A model generated the notes under the pieces. The model searched no databases and was not told the origin of the DNA. It worked only from the letters and a program-made list of their open reading frames with translations. A program made the position numbers and the translations under genes. Below are positions 611-44,739 of a DNA stretch of 46,874 nt, piece after piece. The stretch lies in the sequence record PQ850629.1; one strand, 5' to 3'. Source of the DNA: Escherichia phage SusanneMuster_Bas79. Position 1 is the stretch's first letter; every line of letters starts with the position of its first letter.

Positions 611-633
611 TATCTACGTCTATGTGTTAAAAT
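611..633 (+). promoter_or_regulatory. promoter region upstream of small terminase: conserved box plus extended -10
   Basis: TATCTACGTCTA (611-622) followed by TGTTAAAAT (625-633). Confidence 0.35.
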
Positions 634-2694: not shown

Positions 2695-2734
2695 TTGACC
2701 AATCTACACCGAGCGCATAGTATAATCTACATCA
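2695..2734 (+). promoter_or_regulatory. promoter with two conserved boxes
   Basis: TTGACC (2695-2700), box AATCTACACC (2701-2710), TATAAT (2721-2726) overlapping second box AATCTACATCA (2724-2734). Confidence 0.4.
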
Positions 2735-3938: not shown

Positions 3939-3950
3939 TACCATGCTATA

Positions 3951-3980
3951 ATCCCATCCAACGTGATGGGATTTTTTATT
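3951..3980 (+). terminator. rho-independent terminator
   Basis: stem ATCCCATC / GATGGGAT with 6-nt loop followed by TTTTTATT. Confidence 0.55.
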
Positions 3981-7740: not shown

Positions 7741-7830
7741 CATCGTTTGATGTAGATACTATGCACCACCACTCAATCTACGTCAATAGCCATTGTGATA
7801 GAATTAATCATTATTTGAACAGGAGGCAGA
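7741..7830. promoter_or_regulatory. divergent promoter region with two conserved boxes
   Basis: TGATGTAGAT (7748-7757, reverse orientation) and AATCTACGTCAA (7775-7786); extended -10 TGATAGAAT (7796-7804); AGGAGG before ATG 7831. Confidence 0.45.
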
Positions 7831-8109: not shown

Positions 8110-8563
8110 CAAAAACATGAAGGCGTTTCTGGATATGCTGGCGTACAGCGAGGGCACTGATAACGGGCGGCAGAAAACCAATAATCATGGTTATGATGTG
8201 ATTGTTGGCGGCTCACTGTTTACCGACTATTCCGATCACCCGCGCAAGCTGATTAGCCTGCCTAAGCTGGGCATCAAATCCACTGCCGCCGGGCGCTATC
8301 AGGTGCTGGCTAAATTTTATGATGCGTACAAAAAGCAACTGCGCCTGCCTGACTTCTCCCCCGCGTCACAGGACGCTATCGCAATGCAACTAATCCGTGA
8401 ATGCAAAGCCACCGCCGATATTGAGACTGGTCGCATTGCTGATGCTATCCATAAATGCCGCTCCCGCTGGGCTTCATTACCGGGCGCTGGCTATGGTCAG
8501 CATGAGCAGAAGCTGGATAAGTTGATTCAGGTATACAAAGAGGCTGGCGGAGCTGTGGCATGA
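8099..8563 (+). CDS. endolysin, lambda R-type lytic transglycosylase
   Basis: MAISKNMKAFLDMLAYSEGTDNGRQKTNNHGYDVIVGG...FTDYSDHPRK...WASLPGAGYGQ closely parallels phage lambda R along its length. Confidence 0.9.
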   Translation: MAISKNMKAFLDMLAYSEGTDNGRQKTNNHGYDVIVGGSLFTDYSDHPRKLISLPKLGIKSTAAGRYQVLAKFYDAYKKQLRLPDFSPASQDAIAMQLIRECKATADIETGRIADAIHKCRSRWASLPGAGYGQHEQKLDKLIQVYKEAGGAVA

Positions 8564-9939: not shown

Positions 9940-10370
9940 TATTTAATCTCCAGTTCTTTTGCGCGAATTGCGCTGTCAATGATGTCTTGCAAATCCTGTT
10001 CGCGCGATTTATGTCCGCGCTCGCCAGCCTGTAATGCCTTCTTGATTAAGTGCTGCAATGCAGGGTTGGTGACATTCCACGCCATGAGCACATCGTATAC
10101 GTCAACAAATATACCCGGCTTAATCTCGTGCAGGTATTTGTTATCAGCCTCAGGAGCGCCAATGCAATCATTGAGGTCTTGTTCGTCGGTAATTGGCTCG
10201 CGGTATGCAATAACAACATCCCCGCGACCCTCAATCACTTCAATGCGATCAGCATAATATTTGCTTAGATAGAAAATCTCACCAGTCCTTTCTGACTTAA
10301 CTACAAGATAAGCCGCGTTATGGCCAGCAAAATCATCCTCATAACCTTTCAGATATTTCCATTTTTTCAT
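9939..10370 (-). CDS. hypothetical protein (143 aa)
   Basis: ORF with C-terminal HLIKKALQAGERGHKSR segment; family not recognised with confidence. Confidence 0.45.
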   Translation of the reverse strand: MKKWKYLKGYEDDFAGHNAAYLVVKSERTGEIFYLSKYYADRIEVIEGRGDVVIAYREPITDEQDLNDCIGAPEADNKYLHEIKPGIFVDVYDVLMAWNVTNPALQHLIKKALQAGERGHKSREQDLQDIIDSAIRAKELEIK

Positions 10371-10561
10371 TTCATCGTCACCCGATTATTTTCATCAACA
10401 TTAAAATTATCACGAATCAAATCGTACATCTCATCCTTCGGCATATCAGCCAGCGCCACATAGCAACGGGCAAAGTAGCGAACATCACGGAGTGTCAGCG
10501 GCTGCCGCTTCTCCACAATGCTGGTGATAATGTCCATCGGCTCGCGTCGTGGTCTTGGCAT
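10367..10561 (-). CDS. hypothetical protein (64 aa)
   Basis: first gene of leftward cassette, start adjacent to divergent promoter. Confidence 0.4.
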   Translation of the reverse strand: MPRPRREPMDIITSIVEKRQPLTLRDVRYFARCYVALADMPKDEMYDLIRDNFNVDENNRVTMK

Positions 10562-10659
10562 ATTTACTACTCCTTTTTCGAAATTTATTATTGACGAATC
10601 TACGTCACTTAGTCAATACTGTTGGTGTAGAATGATTCTACCACAACGAAAGAGGTGAT
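10562..10659. promoter_or_regulatory. divergent promoter/operator region
   Basis: box GAATCTACGTCAC (10596-10608) and near-perfect palindrome GTAGAAT-G-ATTCTAC (10627-10641). Confidence 0.45.
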
Positions 10660-10863
10660 GTGGAAATGCGATACAAAGAAATAGCAGCGAGCTATCAGAA
10701 GGAAGTTCGCGAGGTTATGGAAATCCTTAACGTTCGAGAGGATACCATTAAGTATGTGGAAACTGCCATGTGTTCACTTGCTCTTGAAGCGGAGGTTGCA
10801 GGTCGTGAAAAGGCTGACGAACTTATATCTGCGTTGGTTTATAGTTCAACCAGTAACGGTTGA
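10660..10863 (+). CDS. hypothetical protein (about 66 aa)
   Basis: first ORF of a rightward early-type cluster; GAGG upstream. Confidence 0.4.
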   Translation: MEMRYKEIAASYQKEVREVMEILNVREDTIKYVETAMCSLALEAEVAGREKADELISALVYSSTSNG

Positions 10864-11336: not shown

Positions 11337-11581
11337 CAGCACCACATATGCCAATGATGAATGATAGCGGGTTGCTGTGCTGCCCATTCTGTGGCGGGAA
11401 TGAAGTTTACTTGAATATTGATTTAGTGCTTGTATCTGTCGAATGCGGAGATTGCTGTGCAAGTTCAGGTGAATGGGGTTCACCGGAAACCGCTGTCAGG
11501 CACTGGAACACCCGCAACGGACACCTATACACCGCAGACGACTTCAATCAGGCAGCAGAGGAGCGTGATTATGGACTATAA
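11333..11581 (+). CDS. Lar-family restriction alleviation protein (putative)
   Basis: zinc-ribbon pattern CCPFCGG...ECGDCC...AVRHWNTR matches the CPFCGG...C-x2-C...W-N-R-R signature I associate with Lar of the Rac prophage. Confidence 0.6.
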   Translation: MTAPHMPMMNDSGLLCCPFCGGNEVYLNIDLVLVSVECGDCCASSGEWGSPETAVRHWNTRNGHLYTADDFNQAAEERDYGL

Positions 11582-12059
11582 ATCACAAATCATGCGCGTG
11601 ATTATGAATCACCCCGGTTCAACGCGCGCATATATTGAGAAGCATTGCGGAGGAAAGCATTCAAGCACCACAACGCATCGTTTGCATGAGATGCTTGCGC
11701 TTGGATTCATTCGCCGCGAGAAGTCCGTGATTCGCGGTGGGAAGTGGCAGTATAAATATTTCATCTCTGATGATGCAGCTGGTATTGATGATGCTATTAA
11801 GTGCCATTTGCTTGATAACGCTGGCGCAGAGGTGAAAGAAATCAGCGTAGCCACTGGCATTGATTACCGAATCGTGAAAAGCCGCATCCGCATTATGTTT
11901 CATAACGGTGATGTAACGCGAAGATATGACCACCACAAGAAGCTGTGGCGTTATTCTTGGCATGAGAAGGAAGTTAACGTCAGCAACCTGTTTAATTCAC
12001 TTCTTCGCAATGTAAGAGGTCGTCATGGGGAAAGCCAAACGCAAGAAGCAAGAGTATGA
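11571..12059 (+). CDS. hypothetical protein (162 aa), possibly DNA-binding
   Basis: ATG 11571 overlapping stop of upstream gene; basic, helix-rich sequence. Confidence 0.45.
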   Translation: MDYKSQIMRVIMNHPGSTRAYIEKHCGGKHSSTTTHRLHEMLALGFIRREKSVIRGGKWQYKYFISDDAAGIDDAIKCHLLDNAGAEVKEISVATGIDYRIVKSRIRIMFHNGDVTRRYDHHKKLWRYSWHEKEVNVSNLFNSLLRNVRGRHGESQTQEARV

Positions 12060-13337: not shown

Positions 13338-13346
13338 TGTTATAAT
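13338..13346 (+). promoter_or_regulatory. extended -10 element upstream of protease/scaffold gene
   Basis: TGTTATAAT about 32 nt upstream of ATG 13378. Confidence 0.3.
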
Positions 13347-17312: not shown

Positions 17313-18112
17313 TAAACGGACCTCATGAATGCTTTAATGAATTCTGCTGCGACTTGTGGAACTATGGCATTGCCATAACCGCGCAATCGTCCCACTCTTG
17401 CGGATACCCCATGAGTTGCCTCGCAAAATCCGCCTGGTATGACTCTAGTTTCCTTATCTGCTCCATGGTTGGGTTTCCATGAATCCCATAAACATGAAGC
17501 CACATCTGGCGATAAAGAGTATCGTTCCTGAATTTTCCGTCCTTTCTGTAAAATGTCTTGCTGAGATCCCCGTAATCCTTCCATCCTCGCGCCGTTGGTG
17601 TCGCCCATCCTCGCGCCAAAGATGATTCTTTTCCTTTCCTGTGGAGAGCCGACGCTGCAAGCTGGCAATACTGACGCCCCGCAGGCGTAGCCTTTGTCTT
17701 CCAGGTTAAGGAATACAAAATCGAGCCAGTGCTTCCCAATTGCTGCTGCAACCTGCTCTCCAAACAGCAATTCAGGCTTGCACTCTCTGATGAGCCTGAG
17801 AAATGCTGGGGCAAGGTGTCGATCGTCGTCAAATCCGAGAGACTTACCGGCAACGCTAAACGGCTGGCAAGGTGGTGATCCTGTCCAGAGTCGAGTGCTT
17901 TCTGGTATTCCTGCCAGCTGGAGTGCAAGGGGCCACCCTCCGATTCCGGCAAAGAAGTGACACTGTGTAAATCCTTCCAGGTCTGAAGGGGTGACTTCGG
18001 TGATTGATCGTTCATCGACATATCCGTAAGGAATTAGTTTATTGTTAATTAATTCACGCAGCCATGCCGCTGCGCCCTTGTCCCACTCATTGTAATAGTG
18101 GACCATCATCAC
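17312..18112 (-). CDS. DNA (cytosine-5)-methyltransferase
   Basis: motif I FAGIGGW, motif IV PPCQPFS, motif VI FGEQV, motif X GNAIVPQV; compact 266 aa. Confidence 0.85.
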   Translation of the reverse strand: MMMVHYYNEWDKGAAAWLRELINNKLIPYGYVDERSITEVTPSDLEGFTQCHFFAGIGGWPLALQLAGIPESTRLWTGSPPCQPFSVAGKSLGFDDDRHLAPAFLRLIRECKPELLFGEQVAAAIGKHWLDFVFLNLEDKGYACGASVLPACSVGSPQERKRIIFGARMGDTNGARMEGLRGSQQDILQKGRKIQERYSLSPDVASCLWDSWKPNHGADKETRVIPGGFCEATHGVSARVGRLRGYGNAIVPQVAAEFIKAFMRSV

Positions 18113-18918
18113 ATCTTCTCCAGAATTGCCATCACCTCGTGAATATCAGCAACAGGAATCTGGATAAACTCCTCATTCTCTGCCACTACATGACCAGCAG
18201 GAAGAATAACGTGGTCAGCTGGCTTCAGTAACTCAATCAGTCGGTCTACTGGCTTAATCTTTTTCGACTTAAGCACCTTCGCCGTTACCTTATCCTTGCC
18301 TTGCGCCTTCGCTTCTTCGACTGCCTCGTCGATAACTTTAACCGCATCATCGCCATGTTCGCGAGTTACTGCTACGGCATTTGCATAGCTGATTTGCCCT
18401 GCACTGATTCGCGCTTTTACTTCGGCTGGCACATCACCCAGTGACAGGTGCATCTGCACGTCAGAAACTGAGCGCCCTACCTTCTTGGCGATTTCCTCGT
18501 TGGTCCAGCCAAAACCCTTCAGTCGCGTGTAAGCCTTTGCGCGTTCAAACGGGTCAAGCTGCTTACCCTGACTGGACGACACCATGAAGGCGATTTTATC
18601 TGCTTCGCCTCCTGTGAAATCCTTGCACTCAATACGAACAATTGGTGCGCCACGCTCAATGGCACGCAACGCTCCGAGATAGCGATGCTGACCATCAAGA
18701 ATGCGGATTCCCTTCTCGTCTGGAATAACTGTTAATGCTGGCAATGGCTGACCTGACTCCCAGCACTGCGCGAAATACTCCACATGCTGCTCATCTGCTT
18801 CGCGGATGTTGTATCCTGGTTCCAGATAGATTTGCTCAACTGGCACGAGATATGTCTTGTTTACCGCGATTCCGTTGCGCGTTTCTTTGTCTGAATAGAT
18901 TTTGCTTAGTGTTTTCAT
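18109..18918 (-). CDS. ParB/Srx-domain protein (ParB-like nuclease domain)
   Basis: N-terminal ILDGQHRYLGALRA (ParB box GxxRxxA), Lys/Ala-rich linker, C-terminal domain; 4-nt overlap with methyltransferase gene. Confidence 0.7.
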   Translation of the reverse strand: MKTLSKIYSDKETRNGIAVNKTYLVPVEQIYLEPGYNIREADEQHVEYFAQCWESGQPLPALTVIPDEKGIRILDGQHRYLGALRAIERGAPIVRIECKDFTGGEADKIAFMVSSSQGKQLDPFERAKAYTRLKGFGWTNEEIAKKVGRSVSDVQMHLSLGDVPAEVKARISAGQISYANAVAVTREHGDDAVKVIDEAVEEAKAQGKDKVTAKVLKSKKIKPVDRLIELLKPADHVILPAGHVVAENEEFIQIPVADIHEVMAILEKM

Positions 18919-19564: not shown

Positions 19565-19660
19565 TATTGTTGTTTCTACGTCACTAACTATAAACGCCAC
19601 ATCAATCTACGTCAACAGGAATATGCTAAAATCATGCTAATCAAAAAACAGGAGATTTGA
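19565..19660. promoter_or_regulatory. divergent promoter region with two conserved boxes
   Basis: TTTCTACGTCAC (19573-19584), CAATCTACGTCAAC (19603-19616), extended -10 TGCTAAAAT (19624-19632), GGAG before ATG 19663. Confidence 0.45.
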
Positions 19661-22119: not shown

Positions 22120-22830
22120 AAGCATTGCCAGCATGCTTTCTTAATATCCAGCCCCGTAACCCATACATACCCCTACATATGATTGCGATAATGCTGGATA
22201 TTAAGTGTTGTGGTGGCCGGTGCTGATATCCGGCATAAGGCGCTTATTCGGCGGCGTCGAGCTTGCTTATTCGCTTGAGCCATCCTCGTGAGTCAGCCAC
22301 GTCCCACTGCGCATCAGCCTGCGCATTCACCACAACGGAAATAGCACTGGATAACCAAGCGCGCAGACTCTTCACGATTATCTGCTCAATGCTCTTACCT
22401 GTTGTGTGCCACGTTTCGTGTGGCTTACGGCAACGACATTACCGGGTTATTCGCTGCACCCTTGAGGGATTTACTAAGGCGACATGCCCGTTGTTACCCA
22501 CGAATGAGAGTACTGTCTTCGAGCAGACTTTGCCGCGCAAGAACGACGATCAATCACAATACCCTCATTTGTGGGTGCCCATTATTAATCACAGCGGGCC
22601 ACTGCGCCGAATTTGCTTACAAGGAATCGGAAGACCTTGCTGACTTACAGGCTATTACGCCGCCATCAGAACAACATCATCGTTTGCATTTATCTTTGTG
22701 GTCAGTTTCTAAAAAGTCCGCAAAGTCGCTTACGAAAACCATCTGAAATACAATCTACACCACAAAATAATCACTGTCAACACCTGTGATATAATCACCA
22801 CGTTAGCAGCTAACACAATTCGGAGATCGA
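22120..22830. other. ORF-free, inverted-repeat-rich region of about 0.7 kb upstream of major tail gene
   Basis: no plausible ORF on either strand; perfect 12-bp inverted repeat TTAATATCCAGC / GCTGGATATTAA (22141-22152 / 22192-22203); long-range inverted repeat CCCACGAATGAG / CTCATTTGTGGG (about 22497-22510 / 22563-22575); promoter elements at 22751-22796. Confidence 0.5.
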
Positions 22831-24502: not shown

Positions 24503-24610
24503 AACTCACCTCATTTATTCATCACTCGTTTCGATGACTTGAATCTACATCACCACCTCGCAGGTGTCAACACCACTGAGATGATATAATCAACATCAGT
24601 CAAATTCAGG
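24503..24610. promoter_or_regulatory. divergent promoter region
   Basis: box TTGAATCTACATCACC (24539-24554), extended -10 TGATATAAT (24582-24590) upstream of ATG 24611. Confidence 0.4.
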
Positions 24611-28269: not shown

Positions 28270-32991
<4,722 letters not shown>

Positions 32992-33030
32992 TACAATATA
33001 CATCAAATTCACAAAGGAGCATTTATTATA

Positions 33031-44295: not shown

Positions 44296-44348
44296 ATTAT
44301 GATTGAATCATATCATAAGTATTGAATCATGCAACATCAAATACGACT

Positions 44349-44663
44349 CACGTGGGTAACGTGGGGCAGCCGTGGGGAACATCACCTTCCCCACGAACTT
44401 TTACTCTAAGTATATGTAATATAATATAATTATTATTATTTGGGTTAATGGGTAATATTATTATTCATATTATAGATAGTAATTAACATAATATTAACAA
44501 ATGGATTATTTGAATATATTTATAAGGGGATGGGTATGAAATCTGCCCCTTTTTACCCACGAAAAATAAAAACATTCAAATCAATAATTTACGATGAAAA
44601 ACGTGGGGCAACCAACCTTCCCCACGACCTGCCCCACGAGCAAAAATTTACCCCACGGGCACG
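44349..44663. repeat. iteron-flanked AT-rich region (candidate replication origin / control region)
   Basis: about 9 copies of CCCCACG / CGTGGGG (4 left, 5 right, both orientations) flanking a roughly 120-bp strongly AT-rich core (44400-44520). Confidence 0.6.
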
Positions 44664-44680
44664 TTTTTAACGCATCCCTG

Positions 44681-44711
44681 TTGACGTAGAATCATCGTTG
44701 ATGTAGATTGA
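44681..44711 (+). promoter_or_regulatory. promoter for rightward early genes built from two reversed conserved boxes
   Basis: TTGACGTAGAAT (44681-44692) supplies -35 TTGACG; TGATGTAGATTG (44699-44710) supplies -10 TAGATT with 17-bp spacing; GAGGGTGAAGAG before ATG 44740. Confidence 0.45.
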
Positions 44712-44739
44712 ACTCATCGAAACAAACGAGGGTGAAGAG

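What the first reader, a model, noticed from the sequence alone, without database searches (positions are those of the whole stretch)
10623..10645. Near-perfect palindrome GTAGAAT-G-ATTCTAC in the divergent promoter between two accessory cassettes
A 7+1+7 perfect inverted repeat (10627-10641, extending imperfectly to about 10623-10645) lies beside a copy of the conserved box at 10596-10608, between a leftward four-gene cassette and the rightward early-type cluster that contains the Lar-like gene. A palindrome is the classic footprint of a dimeric repressor operator, and its half-site (ATTCTAC) is a one-base variant of the conserved box.
Basis: seen in the sequence. Interest (0 to 1): 0.4.

Follow-up and report, generated by a model that had tools for sequence, protein, structure and literature searches.

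The report
Promoter element abutting a regulatory box
The 15-base palindrome is real, but it looks like a by-product of a leftward promoter's -10 element sitting one base from a conserved 11-base regulatory box, so the box rather than the symmetry is the part worth testing.

Summary
GTAGAAT-G-ATTCTAC is present at 10627-10641. Perfect 7+1+7 palindromes are no commoner in this 46.9-kb phage genome than in shuffled sequence (17 versus 14.7 +/- 4.4).

Read on the minus strand, the right arm plus two bases is an extended -10 promoter element, TGG-TAGAAT. In all 36 related sequences examined this position keeps TGn-TAnAAT, and only the two 'n' positions vary.

The left arm is the first heptamer of an 11-base box, AATCTAC-R-Y-CA. 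The box has 16 copies with at most one mismatch, 14 of them in the 5.5% of the genome that is intergenic. It is conserved in distant relatives.

The dyad arises because the box start (ATTCTA) is the reverse complement of TAGAAT. Twenty-eight of the 35 relatives lack the 15-base dyad but keep both elements.

The box is the probable operator. It sits across the predicted start points of the rightward promoter (g27/Lar cluster) and of the leftward promoter. A second copy lies in the shared spacer of two overlapping divergent promoters.

Which protein binds the box is not known. The best candidate by conservation is the phage's ParB/KorB-type helix-turn-helix protein. A MarR-like protein and a small winged-helix protein next to the site are weaker candidates.

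The palindrome itself is ordinary. The box regulon is moderately interesting and I found no description of it.

The parts
10627..10641 (.). Perfect 7+1+7 palindrome GTAGAAT-G-ATTCTAC, the finding itself
   Evidence: Present in 7 of 35 relatives, counting L012, which has one mismatch, and the g27-proximal module of VSt472.
10635..10643 (-). Extended -10 element TGG-TAGAAT of the leftward promoter P_L2. The hexamer is 10640->10635 and the TG is 10643->10642. It makes up the right arm of the palindrome. Predicted start point about 10628.
   Evidence: Promoter scan: TCCACA-18-TAGAAT with TG. TGn-TAnAAT is kept in 36 of 36 sequences and only the n positions vary. It belongs to a genome-wide class of 19 such motifs, 10 of them intergenic.
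10659..10664 (-). -35-like hexamer TCCACA of P_L2, overlapping the start of g27
   Evidence: The sequence is conserved in relatives, though coding and ribosome-binding constraints on g27 could also explain that.
10622..10633 (-). Conserved box copy, ATTCTACACCAA on the minus strand. Its first heptamer is the left arm of the palindrome. It spans the predicted start points of both P_R and P_L2.
   Evidence: One-mismatch match to AATCTACRYCA. A box occupies this position in all 36 sequences; 35 read like this one on the minus strand and L026 has it inverted.
10597..10608 (+). Conserved box copy AATCTACGTCAC, lying in the shared spacer of the overlapping promoters P_R and P_L1
   Evidence: Conserved in relatives, in RSU-F4K5 and in KpV2811.
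10591..10620 (+). Rightward promoter P_R: TTGACG (10591-10596), 18 bases, AATACT (10615-10620). Predicted start about 10627. Drives g27 and the Lar-like cluster.
   Evidence: TTGACn-18-AATACT is kept in 34 of 36 sequences; at the VSt472 g26-proximal module (L011) the scan found no P_R, and the window-type module next to g27 in VSt472 does carry it.
10587..10616 (-). Leftward promoter P_L1: TTGACT (10616->10611), 18 bases, AATAAT (10592->10587). Predicted start about 10580, 19 bases before the g26 ATG. Its -35 overlaps the -10 of P_R.
   Evidence: Best promoter-like match in the region, 10 of 12. Annotated as a promoter in phage ASO78B. Conserved in relatives.
10367..10561 (-). g26, first gene of the leftward cassette: 64 aa with a predicted small winged-helix fold and a basic N-terminal arm. 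Weak candidate binder.
10660..10863 (+). g27, first gene of the rightward cluster. The likely start is the ATG at 10666, behind GAGGTGA. Function unknown; replaced by an unrelated gene in many relatives.
11571..12059 (+). g31, a MarR-like winged helix-turn-helix protein in the P_R operon. Candidate binder, disfavoured by its divergence.
   Evidence: phrog_1687 and a weak MarR_2 match. Only 35% identical in RSU-F4K5 and undetectable by tblastn in KpV2811, although the box is unchanged in both.
18109..18918 (-). ParB/KorB-family helix-turn-helix protein, the best candidate for the box-binding regulator. Its own operon promoter (19615->19587) contains two boxes.
   Evidence: Pfam HTH_ParB 2.5e-11 and KorB 4.5e-6. 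PDB matches to Spo0J, ParB, Noc and KorB. About 81% identical in RSU-F4K5 and KpV2811 with an identical helix-turn-helix. Boxes at 19573 and 19604.
2701..2734 (+). Other box copies, example pair at the g05 promoter: TTGACC|AATCTACACCG ... TATAATCTACATCA. Further copies start at 611, 7748(-), 7775, 19573, 19604, 22752, 24542, 24588, 32995, 38338, 40707, 40732, 44682(-) and 44699(-).

Best explanation
The palindrome is a composite of two abutting elements, not a dyad operator.

On the minus strand the sequence reads 5'-GTTG-TGG-TAGAAT-C-ATTCTACACCAAC-3'.
- TGG-TAGAAT (the right arm plus two bases) is an extended -10 element. It belongs to a sigma-70 promoter, P_L2, that fires leftward toward the g26 cassette and starts at about 10628.
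- ATTCTACACCAA (the left arm plus five bases) is a copy of an 11-base clade-specific box, AATCTAC-R-Y-CA.

The box begins AATCTA or ATTCTA, which is the reverse complement of a -10-like hexamer (TAGATT or TAGAAT). Placing a TAGAAT hexamer one base from the box therefore creates a perfect dyad automatically.

The working parts are inferred to be these.
(a) Three overlapping promoters: P_R rightward (TTGACG-18-AATACT, start about 10627), P_L1 leftward (TTGACT-18-AATAAT, start about 10580) and P_L2 leftward.
(b) Two boxes, one in the shared spacer of P_R and P_L1 and one across the coincident start points of P_R and P_L2.

A protein bound to these two boxes would occlude RNA polymerase at all three promoters. 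The same box sits within or next to nearly every other predicted promoter of the phage. It is therefore most likely the operator of a phage-encoded global regulator.

The best candidate is the ParB/KorB-type helix-turn-helix protein at 18109-18918, whose own promoter carries two boxes, which suggests autoregulation.

Shown here: the sequence anatomy, the conservation pattern and the enrichment statistics. Inferred: promoter activity, start points, protein binding and the identity of the binder.
For: 1. The extended -10 reading. In 36 of 36 sequences the minus strand has TGn-TAnAAT at this position. The set is the window, 33 IMG/VR relatives, Klebsiella phage RSU-F4K5 (all) and KpV2811. In the 35 sequences the forms are TGG-TACAAT 23, TGG-TAGAAT 6, TGA-TAGAAT 2, TGA-TACAAT 2, TGT-TATAAT 1 and TGA-TATAAT 1. 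Only the two degenerate consensus positions vary.

2. The promoter scan independently reports TCCACA-18-TAGAAT with an upstream TG.

3. TGnTAnA[AT]T is a genome-wide promoter class. Of 19 copies, 10 are intergenic (P about 1.6e-8). Most of those lie 20-30 bases upstream of g02, portal, lysis, g49, major tail, tape-measure-operon and fibre genes.

4. The layout '-10 followed by a forward box' recurs. The clearest cases are 2718 (TATAATCTACATCA), 24584, 32990 and 40725 (TATACT-C-AATCTACACCAAC, nearly identical to the minus strand here).

5. The box is real. There are 9 exact and 16 one-mismatch copies, against 0.07 and 3.0 in shuffles, and 14 of 16 are intergenic (P about 3e-16). Information content falls to background just outside the 11-mer.

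6. The box is conserved in Bas77 (15 copies), Segz_1 (20), RSU-F4K5 (19) and KpV2811 (14). It is absent from phage Jersey (0).

7. The dyad is not conserved. Twenty-eight of 35 relatives lack the 15-base palindrome but keep both the box and the -10. L030 shows that a G at the free -10 position alone gives another perfect dyad, GTAGA-T-TCTAC.

8. Palindromes of this size occur at the chance rate.

9. The binder. The ParB-like protein is about 81% identical between the window and both RSU-F4K5 and KpV2811, and its helix-turn-helix is identical to that of RSU-F4K5. g31 falls to 35% or becomes undetectable, and g26 to 52-53%, while the box stays invariant.
Against: - No start-site or binding data exist for this phage group, so all promoters are consensus matches only.
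- P_L2 lies 67 bases upstream of g26. A better-placed promoter, P_L1, already exists, so the need for P_L2 is unclear.
- In VSt472 the palindrome-bearing module sits beside a plus-strand HNH gene, where a leftward promoter would be antisense.
- The TGnTAnAAT pattern on the minus strand could in principle reflect a constraint on the plus-strand 5' leader of g27.
- Within the window-type lineage the dyad is perfect in 5 of the 6 IMG/VR loci that carry it (L012 has one mismatch), and the g27-proximal VSt472 module has it too. Selection for symmetry in that lineage is therefore not excluded.
- For the ParB idea: ParB, KorB and Noc sites are 13-16-base palindromes, whereas this box is asymmetric.
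- The CTP-binding motifs are degenerate (GQHR in place of GERR, SSSQG in place of ENLQR).
- The test in unrelated ParB-carrying Jilinvirus phages was inconclusive.
Confidence: 0.68

Rival explanations
1. The 15-base dyad is itself the operator of a dimeric repressor, with each monomer contacting one ATTCTAC half-site. It would control both the divergent g26 and g27 promoters in this lineage.
For: Perfect dyad across the predicted start points of P_R and P_L2. Perfectly kept in L004, L010, L033, L034 and the g27-proximal VSt472 module. L030 has a shorter perfect dyad. Helix-turn-helix or winged-helix candidates are encoded nearby.
Against: Absent from 28 of 35 relatives that keep the same genes and promoters. 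L026 has the box inverted, so the two copies are direct repeats. Segz_1 has the same length but only 4 of 7 pairs. The 15-mer occurs once in the genome, whereas the asymmetric box recurs 16 or more times. Palindromes of this size are at the chance rate. The right arm is fully explained as a -10 element.
Confidence: 0.12
2. A pair of face-to-face -10 elements. TAGAAT reads on both strands (10628-10633 on plus, 10640-10635 on minus). The dyad would then be a bidirectional core promoter, or the plus-strand copy would act as a sigma-70-dependent pause signal at +1 to +7 of the P_R transcript.
For: Both hexamers fit TAnnnT. In most relatives the plus strand still carries a -10-like TAGATT at the same place. 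The reverse complement of the box serves as a predicted -10 elsewhere, at 24570->24542, 22780->22752 and 44681->44709.
Against: The plus-strand TAGAAT has no TG and no usable -35 (TCACTT or GTCACT at 17-18 bases). P_R already provides a promoter 7 bases upstream. The plus-strand -10-like hexamer is lost in L026. Other promoters of the same design carry the box in the forward orientation at +1, which gives no -10-like sequence.
Confidence: 0.08
3. An RNA element. The dyad forms a 5'-terminal stem-loop on the g27 mRNA, or on the leftward transcript, that stabilises the message or modulates translation.
For: The 27-base version folds at -8.2 kcal/mol with z = -2.7.
Against: With the predicted start at about 10627 only a 6-pair A/U-rich stem remains. 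In the 46-base leader the minimum-free-energy fold does not use it (z = -1.2). The majority-type sequence cannot form it. No Rfam match.
Confidence: 0.05
4. Nothing functional. Both the dyad and the apparent -10 are chance features of an A/T-rich intergenic region, and only P_R, P_L1 and the upstream box matter.
For: Chance-level palindrome frequency. All promoter calls are consensus matches, and the scan finds nearly as many in shuffles.
Against: Strict retention of TGnTAnAAT and of a box at this position across phages as distant as KpV2811, whose capsid protein is 25% identical. Strong intergenic enrichment of both motif classes.
Confidence: 0.05

Closest known systems
Extended -10 (TGn-TATAAT) sigma-70 promoters of enterobacteria and their phages (established knowledge)
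   Same: TG one base upstream of a TAnAAT hexamer. A weak or absent -35. A conservation pattern restricted to the consensus positions. The same motif sits 20-30 bases upstream of the phage's structural and lysis genes.
   Different: No start site has been mapped here. The element lies inside the transcribed leader of the opposing promoter and 67 bases from its gene.
Overlapping or face-to-face promoter switches of temperate coliphages, such as lambda PR/PRM with OR, and 186 pR/pL or P2 Pe/Pc (recalled from memory)
   Same: Several promoters are packed into less than 100 bases between divergent gene cassettes. Short operators are placed so that one protein can shut several promoters.
   Different: Those operators are dyad-symmetric and bound by dimers, and they belong to lysogeny switches. 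Here the repeated unit is an asymmetric 11-mer, the phage has no integrase or recognisable CI/Cro pair, and the same box occurs at nearly all promoters genome-wide.
KorB (ParB family) global regulon of plasmid RK2: sites dispersed at or near promoters. The KorB/KorA mechanism is described in PMC11790492; the site number and sequence are from memory.
   Same: A ParB-family protein with HTH_ParB and KorB domains is encoded. About 16-20 short specific sites are dispersed over the replicon, nearly all in promoter regions, including its own operon's promoter. No ParA partner is present, which argues for regulation rather than partition.
   Different: KorB sites are 13-base palindromes. KorB is a CTP-dependent sliding clamp with intact GERR-type motifs and works with KorA or TrbA. 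Here the box is asymmetric, the CTP motifs are degenerate, no KorA-like partner was identified, and the replicon is a virulent phage. Binding is untested.
Phage promoter-associated activator or repressor boxes, such as T4 MotA boxes at -30 and phi29 p4 sites (recalled from memory)
   Same: A short phage-specific motif recurs at fixed places within host-type promoters and could time early versus late transcription.
   Different: Box position relative to the promoter is not fixed: it is found in the spacer, just after the -10, at the -35, and in both orientations. No MotA/AsiA or p4 homologue was found.

Membership tests
Dyad-symmetric operator of a dimeric repressor | Two inverted half-sites with dyad symmetry | tested here: met
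   7+1+7 perfect, 13+1+13 at 85%.
Dyad-symmetric operator of a dimeric repressor | Symmetry, meaning both half-sites, maintained among relatives that keep the regulated genes | tested here: not met
   28 of 35 relatives lack the 15-base dyad. L026 has direct repeats and Segz_1 has 4 of 7 pairs.
Dyad-symmetric operator of a dimeric repressor | Symmetry beyond chance, or recurrence of the same dyad at other regulated promoters | tested here: not met
   17 such palindromes against 14.7 +/- 4.4 in shuffles. The 15-mer occurs once, and GTAGAAT only twice, in the window.
Dyad-symmetric operator of a dimeric repressor | Cognate DNA-binding protein that binds the site | not testable with these tools
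   Candidates exist (g26 winged helix; g31 MarR-like; ParB-like), but binding needs EMSA or footprinting.
Extended -10 sigma-70 promoter | TG at -15/-14, one base upstream of a TAnnnT hexamer | tested here: met
   Minus strand TGG-TAGAAT, 10643->10635.
Extended -10 sigma-70 promoter | Evolutionary conservation confined to the consensus positions | tested here: met
   TGn-TAnAAT in 36 of 36 sequences, and only the n positions vary.
Extended -10 sigma-70 promoter | Upstream of a co-oriented gene; a transcript start 6-8 bases downstream | tested here: inconclusive
   It is co-oriented with g26 and 67 bases upstream. No transcript-end data are available. In VSt472 the neighbouring gene is on the other strand.
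Clade-specific promoter box AATCTAC-R-Y-CA | Match to the 11-mer with at most one mismatch | tested here: met
   The left arm with its upstream bases, 10623-10633 (-), ATTCTACACCA, has 1 mismatch. The right arm read forward has 3 mismatches, so it is not a member.
Clade-specific promoter box AATCTAC-R-Y-CA | Intergenic, promoter-associated, and conserved at the orthologous position | tested here: met
   14 of 16 copies are intergenic. A box occupies this position in all 36 sequences.
ParB/KorB-type global regulon | ParB-family protein with an HTH DNA-binding domain encoded by the replicon | tested here: met
   HTH_ParB 2.5e-11 and KorB 4.5e-6. Spo0J 6e-13 and KorB 3e-3 in the PDB.
ParB/KorB-type global regulon | Palindromic 13-16-base recognition site | tested here: not met
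   The box is an asymmetric 11-mer with no information in its flanks.
ParB/KorB-type global regulon | Intact CTP-binding motifs (GERRxRA, ENLQR) | tested here: not met
   GQHRY and SSSQG at the aligned positions. Inferred from alignment only.
ParB/KorB-type global regulon | The protein binds the dispersed sites and alters transcription | not testable with these tools
   Only indirect support: protein conservation of about 81% with an identical helix-turn-helix tracks the invariant box. The cross-check in Jilinvirus phages was inconclusive.

The most novel reading that the evidence does not exclude
The 11-base box is the recognition site of the phage's ParB/KorB-like helix-turn-helix protein. 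That protein has lost the canonical CTP motifs and has no ParA partner. It would act as a KorB-style global transcription regulator of a virulent siphophage. It would sit at about 16-20 asymmetric sites built into nearly every early-type promoter (as the -35, in the spacer, or at +1) and next to most late extended -10 promoters. It would time the early-to-late switch and autoregulate its own operon.
Probability: 0.25. Interest if true: 0.6.

Novelty: new member of a known kind. Interest (0 to 1): 0.3.

Why it matters
For the palindrome itself, very little. It is an example of how a -10 hexamer next to a motif that resembles its reverse complement can mimic an operator dyad.

The useful outcome is a testable promoter and operator map for a widespread group of Salmonella, Escherichia, Shigella and Klebsiella phages. 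The group includes Vi II-E1 and BASEL Bas77-81, some of which are used in typing and proposed for therapy.

The map has three overlapping promoters and two boxes at this locus. It also has a genome-wide class of extended -10 promoters for structural genes. A compact 11-base box marks almost every promoter and is invariant across phages whose capsid proteins have diverged to 25% identity.

If the box binder proves to be the ParB/KorB-like protein, ParB-family transcriptional control would extend from plasmids to virulent phages.

Tried and rejected
- Chance test of the palindrome: not enriched.

- RNA hairpin: modest stability, not used in the leader fold, and not conserved. No Rfam family.

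- Literature: full-text searches for the box sequence, Jerseyvirinae or Guernseyvirinae promoters, Macdonaldcampvirus, and phage ParB-like with KorB found no description of the box. The Vi II-E1 genome paper is not held. Its annotated repeat_region (8135-8410) is a different feature.

- The PNAS 2026 paper on ParB-dependent T-dioxygenases concerns ParBs that lack a DNA-binding domain, so it is not applicable.

- g31 (MarR-like) as the binder: disfavoured, because it is 35% identical in RSU-F4K5 and undetectable in KpV2811 while the box is unchanged.

- g27 as the binder: rejected, because many relatives replace it with an unrelated gene while keeping the same upstream region.

- Other small conserved proteins (g43, g09, g34, g41, g60, g05, g02, g33, g86, g62): no DNA-binding family match.

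- ParB co-occurrence test outside the clade. ECO1230-10 (ParB 43% identical) has ACTCTACATCA in the spacer of the promoter upstream of its parB operon. Arya has a different sequence there. EhrS_59 and ST16-OXA48phi5.2 show nothing. Overall inconclusive.

- Box as a mere promoter hexamer. Its reverse complement TTGAYRTAGATT does supply predicted -35 or -10 hexamers at five promoters. This cannot explain copies lying in spacers, after -10 elements, in both orientations, or the sharp 11-base information profile.

- Host transcription-factor sites recalled from memory (DnaA, IHF, RcsB, MetJ, RutR, matS and others): none fits. No database test was available.

Full report
WHAT THE WINDOW IS

The 46,874-base window is a complete siphophage genome. 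It is collinear from its first base with Escherichia phage ClaudiaMuster_Bas77 (97.6% identity over the test stretch). It is related to phages C1 and DS8 and to Salmonella phage Vi II-E1 (genus Macdonaldcampvirus).

I transferred the Bas77 gene map onto the window by tblastn. Variable regions were filled in from ORF lists. Intergenic DNA makes up 5.5% of the genome.

THE OBSERVATION

GTAGAATGATTCTAC is at 10627-10641 and extends imperfectly to 10621-10647. It lies in the 98-base gap between two genes:
- the leftward 64-aa gene g26 (10367-10561), first of five leftward ORFs;
- the rightward gene g27 (10660/10666-10863), first of the cluster that holds the Lar-like gene.

Such palindromes are not rare. 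The window has 17 perfect ones with arms of at least 7 and loops of 0-3, against 14.7 +/- 4.4 in dinucleotide-preserving shuffles. The dyad on its own carries no statistical weight.

THE CONSERVED BOX

- AATCTAC[AG][TC]CA occurs 9 times exactly and 16 times with at most one mismatch. Shuffles give 0.07 and 3.0.
- Fourteen of the 16 lie in the intergenic 5.5% (binomial P about 3e-16). One more sits at a gene end.
- Pooled over four divergent genomes (69 sites), information content drops to background immediately outside the 11-mer. It is a compact, asymmetric site and not part of a longer duplicated module.
- The box is conserved in Bas77 (15 copies), Segz_1 (20), Klebsiella phage RSU-F4K5 (19) and KpV2811 (14). 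KpV2811's capsid protein is only 25% identical.
- It is absent from phage Jersey.

The left arm of the palindrome plus its upstream bases, read on the minus strand (ATTCTACACCA, 10633->10623), is one of the 16 significant copies. The right arm read as a forward box has three mismatches.

COMPARATIVE ANATOMY OF THE INTERGENIC REGION

I fetched 33 related loci from IMG/VR through the g26 protein and aligned the region. I added RSU-F4K5 and KpV2811.

- Twenty-four relatives read TTATTGACGTAGATT followed by GTACCACAAC (22), GTATCACAAC (L014) or GTACCACAAA (L013). This is a single inverted consensus box (reverse complement AATCTACGTCAA) with no 15-base dyad.
- Six IMG/VR loci share the window-type sequence, one of them (L012) with a mismatch. 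The g27-proximal module of VSt472 also has it.
- Segz_1 has the same length but only 4 of 7 pairs.
- L026 has the box inverted, so the two copies are direct repeats.
- L030 has a different perfect dyad, GTAGA-T-TCTAC.

The dyad is therefore not the conserved unit.

WHAT IS CONSERVED

On the minus strand, all 36 sequences read TGn-TAnAAT immediately followed by the box. The box either overlaps the hexamer through its AAT or starts one base later; in L026 it is inverted.

In the 35 sequences the forms are:
- TGG-TACAAT: 23
- TGG-TAGAAT: 6
- TGA-TAGAAT: 2
- TGA-TACAAT: 2
- TGT-TATAAT: 1
- TGA-TATAAT: 1

KpV2811 has TGT-TATAAT. Only the two positions that are degenerate in the extended -10 consensus vary. 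This is the signature of an extended -10 sigma-70 promoter.

The mechanical scan had already listed TCCACA-18-TAGAAT with an upstream TG on the minus strand.

The motif TGnTAnA[AT]T forms a genome-wide class. Of 19 copies, 10 are intergenic (P about 1.6e-8). Most of those lie 20-30 bases upstream of g02, portal, lysis, g49, major-tail, tape-measure-operon and fibre genes. One further copy lies just before g38.

The layout '-10 then forward box' recurs, most clearly at 2718, 24584, 32990 and 40725. The last reads TATACT-C-AATCTACACCAAC, almost the same as the minus strand here, TAGAAT-C-ATTCTACACCAAC.

The palindrome is explained as follows. The right arm is the -10 hexamer plus the G of TGG, belonging to a leftward promoter I call P_L2. 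The left arm is the first heptamer of the box. The two are complementary because the box start AATCTA/ATTCTA is the reverse complement of a -10-like TAGATT/TAGAAT.

THE REST OF THE REGION

- P_R: TTGACG(10591)-18-AATACT(10615-10620), predicted start about 10627.
- P_L1: TTGACT(10616->10611)-18-AATAAT(10592->10587), predicted start about 10580. It is the best match in the region and is annotated as a promoter in ASO78B.

These two overlap so that each -35 abuts the other's -10. This accounts for the invariant TTAGTCAATAC in the alignment. The perfect box at 10597-10607 lies in their shared spacer.

The box at 10622-10633 lies across the coincident predicted starts of P_R and P_L2. P_R and P_L2 face each other, so RNA polymerase cannot occupy both.

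By inference, two bound boxes would shut all three promoters.

THE BOX ELSEWHERE IN THE GENOME

Three promoters share the P_R design: a -35 followed directly by a forward box, then a second box near +1. They are at 2695 (g05 cluster), 10591, and 40701 (primase).

The reverse complement of the box, TTGAYRTAGATT, supplies a predicted -35 or -10 at five further promoters:
- 7786-> (g17);
- 19615-> (the operon that encodes the ParB-like protein, with a second box at +1);
- 24570-> (g62);
- 44681-> (g84);
- 22780->, which has no leftward gene.

Because the box occurs in spacers, after -10 elements, at -35 positions and in both orientations, I read it as a protein-binding site rather than a core promoter element. 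This is inference.

WHO BINDS THE BOX

Recognisable DNA-binding candidates are the following.

- g31 (11571-12059): MarR-like, phrog_1687.
- A ParB/KorB-family protein (18109-18918): HTH_ParB 2.5e-11 and KorB 4.5e-6 in Pfam. Its PDB matches are Spo0J, ParB, Noc and KorB.

The box is identical in RSU-F4K5 and KpV2811. Between the window and those phages the candidates compare as follows:
- the ParB-like protein is about 81% identical, and its helix-turn-helix is identical to that of RSU-F4K5;
- g26 is 52-53% identical;
- g31 is 35% identical in RSU-F4K5 and undetectable in KpV2811.

On this criterion the ParB-like protein is the best candidate. It resembles KorB of RK2 in having dispersed promoter-associated sites and no ParA partner. 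It fails two family features: its site is not palindromic, and its CTP motifs are degenerate (GQHR, SSSQG).

A cross-check in unrelated phages that carry 43-49% identical ParB-like proteins was inconclusive.

RIVALS

- A genuine dimer operator in the window lineage cannot be excluded, but nothing beyond the dyad itself supports it.
- A 5' RNA hairpin is weak and not conserved.
- A pair of opposed -10 elements, or a sigma-dependent pause signal, is possible for the plus-strand TAGAAT/TAGATT, but it lacks a -35 or TG and is lost in L026.
- No Rfam family matches.

VERDICT

It is wrong about what matters: the symmetry is incidental.

The palindrome is ordinary. The box and promoter map, and the possible ParB/KorB-like regulon, are the parts worth experimental follow-up. 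I found no prior description of the box in the held literature.

Noticed in passing
window 625-633, 3944-3952, 7796-7804, 13338-13346, 19624-19632, 22787-22795, 24582-24590, 32989-32997 (all + strand): A genome-wide class of extended -10 motifs (TGnTAnAAT) without a -35. They lie 20-30 bases upstream of g02, portal, lysis, g38, g49, major tail, tape-measure-operon and tail-fibre genes, and look like the phage's structural and late promoters.
   Followed up: partly
window 44296-44739: A 444-base gene-free, very A/T-rich region. It is flanked by repeated CCCCACG/CGTGGGG motifs (about 44349-44395 and 44600-44665) and lies next to two boxes. It may be a replication origin with iterons.
   Followed up: no
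window 22752-22780 (- strand): A strong promoter-like match, TTGACA-17-TAGATT (10 of 12), that uses a box as its -10. It points leftward into the end of plus-strand g57 and has no leftward gene, so it may be an antisense promoter. A near-identical module at 24542-24570 does drive the leftward g62 operon.
   Followed up: no
L011 and L053 (Salmonella virus VSt472), L053 654-1510: An HNH endonuclease gene is inserted between the g26 and g27 homologues and the promoter module is duplicated. The g27-proximal copy keeps the exact palindrome, while the g26-proximal copy has TGT-TATAAT overlapping the box.
   Followed up: partly
L026, position aligned to window 10622-10633: The box at the palindrome position is present in the opposite orientation (TTTCTACACCAA instead of TTGGTGTAGAA). 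This is a natural inversion that leaves the extended -10 intact.
   Followed up: partly
window 10642-10664: CCACA (10642-10646) can pair with TGTGG (10659-10663) across the g27 Shine-Dalgarno sequence. The pairing is predicted in both the window-type and the majority-type leaders, so translation of g27 may be structured.
   Followed up: no
window 10367-10561 (- strand): g26, which has no family annotation, is predicted with high confidence (pLDDT 90) to be a 64-aa winged-helix domain with a basic PRPRR N-terminal arm.
   Followed up: yes
window 18109-18918 (- strand): The ParB-like protein has GQHRY in place of the GERRxRA arginine patch and SSSQG in place of ENLQR, and no ParA is encoded. The neighbouring methyltransferase differs between relatives: absent in Segz_1 and a C-specific methylase in KpV2811.
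   Followed up: partly
L060 (Escherichia phage ECO1230-10) 3840-3880 (- strand): In this unrelated Jilinvirus myophage the promoter upstream of the operon encoding a 43%-identical ParB-like protein reads TTGCAA-TCACTCTACATCATCGCA-TATCAT. That is a box-like TCTACATCA directly after the -35. The relative Arya has a different sequence there.
   Followed up: partly
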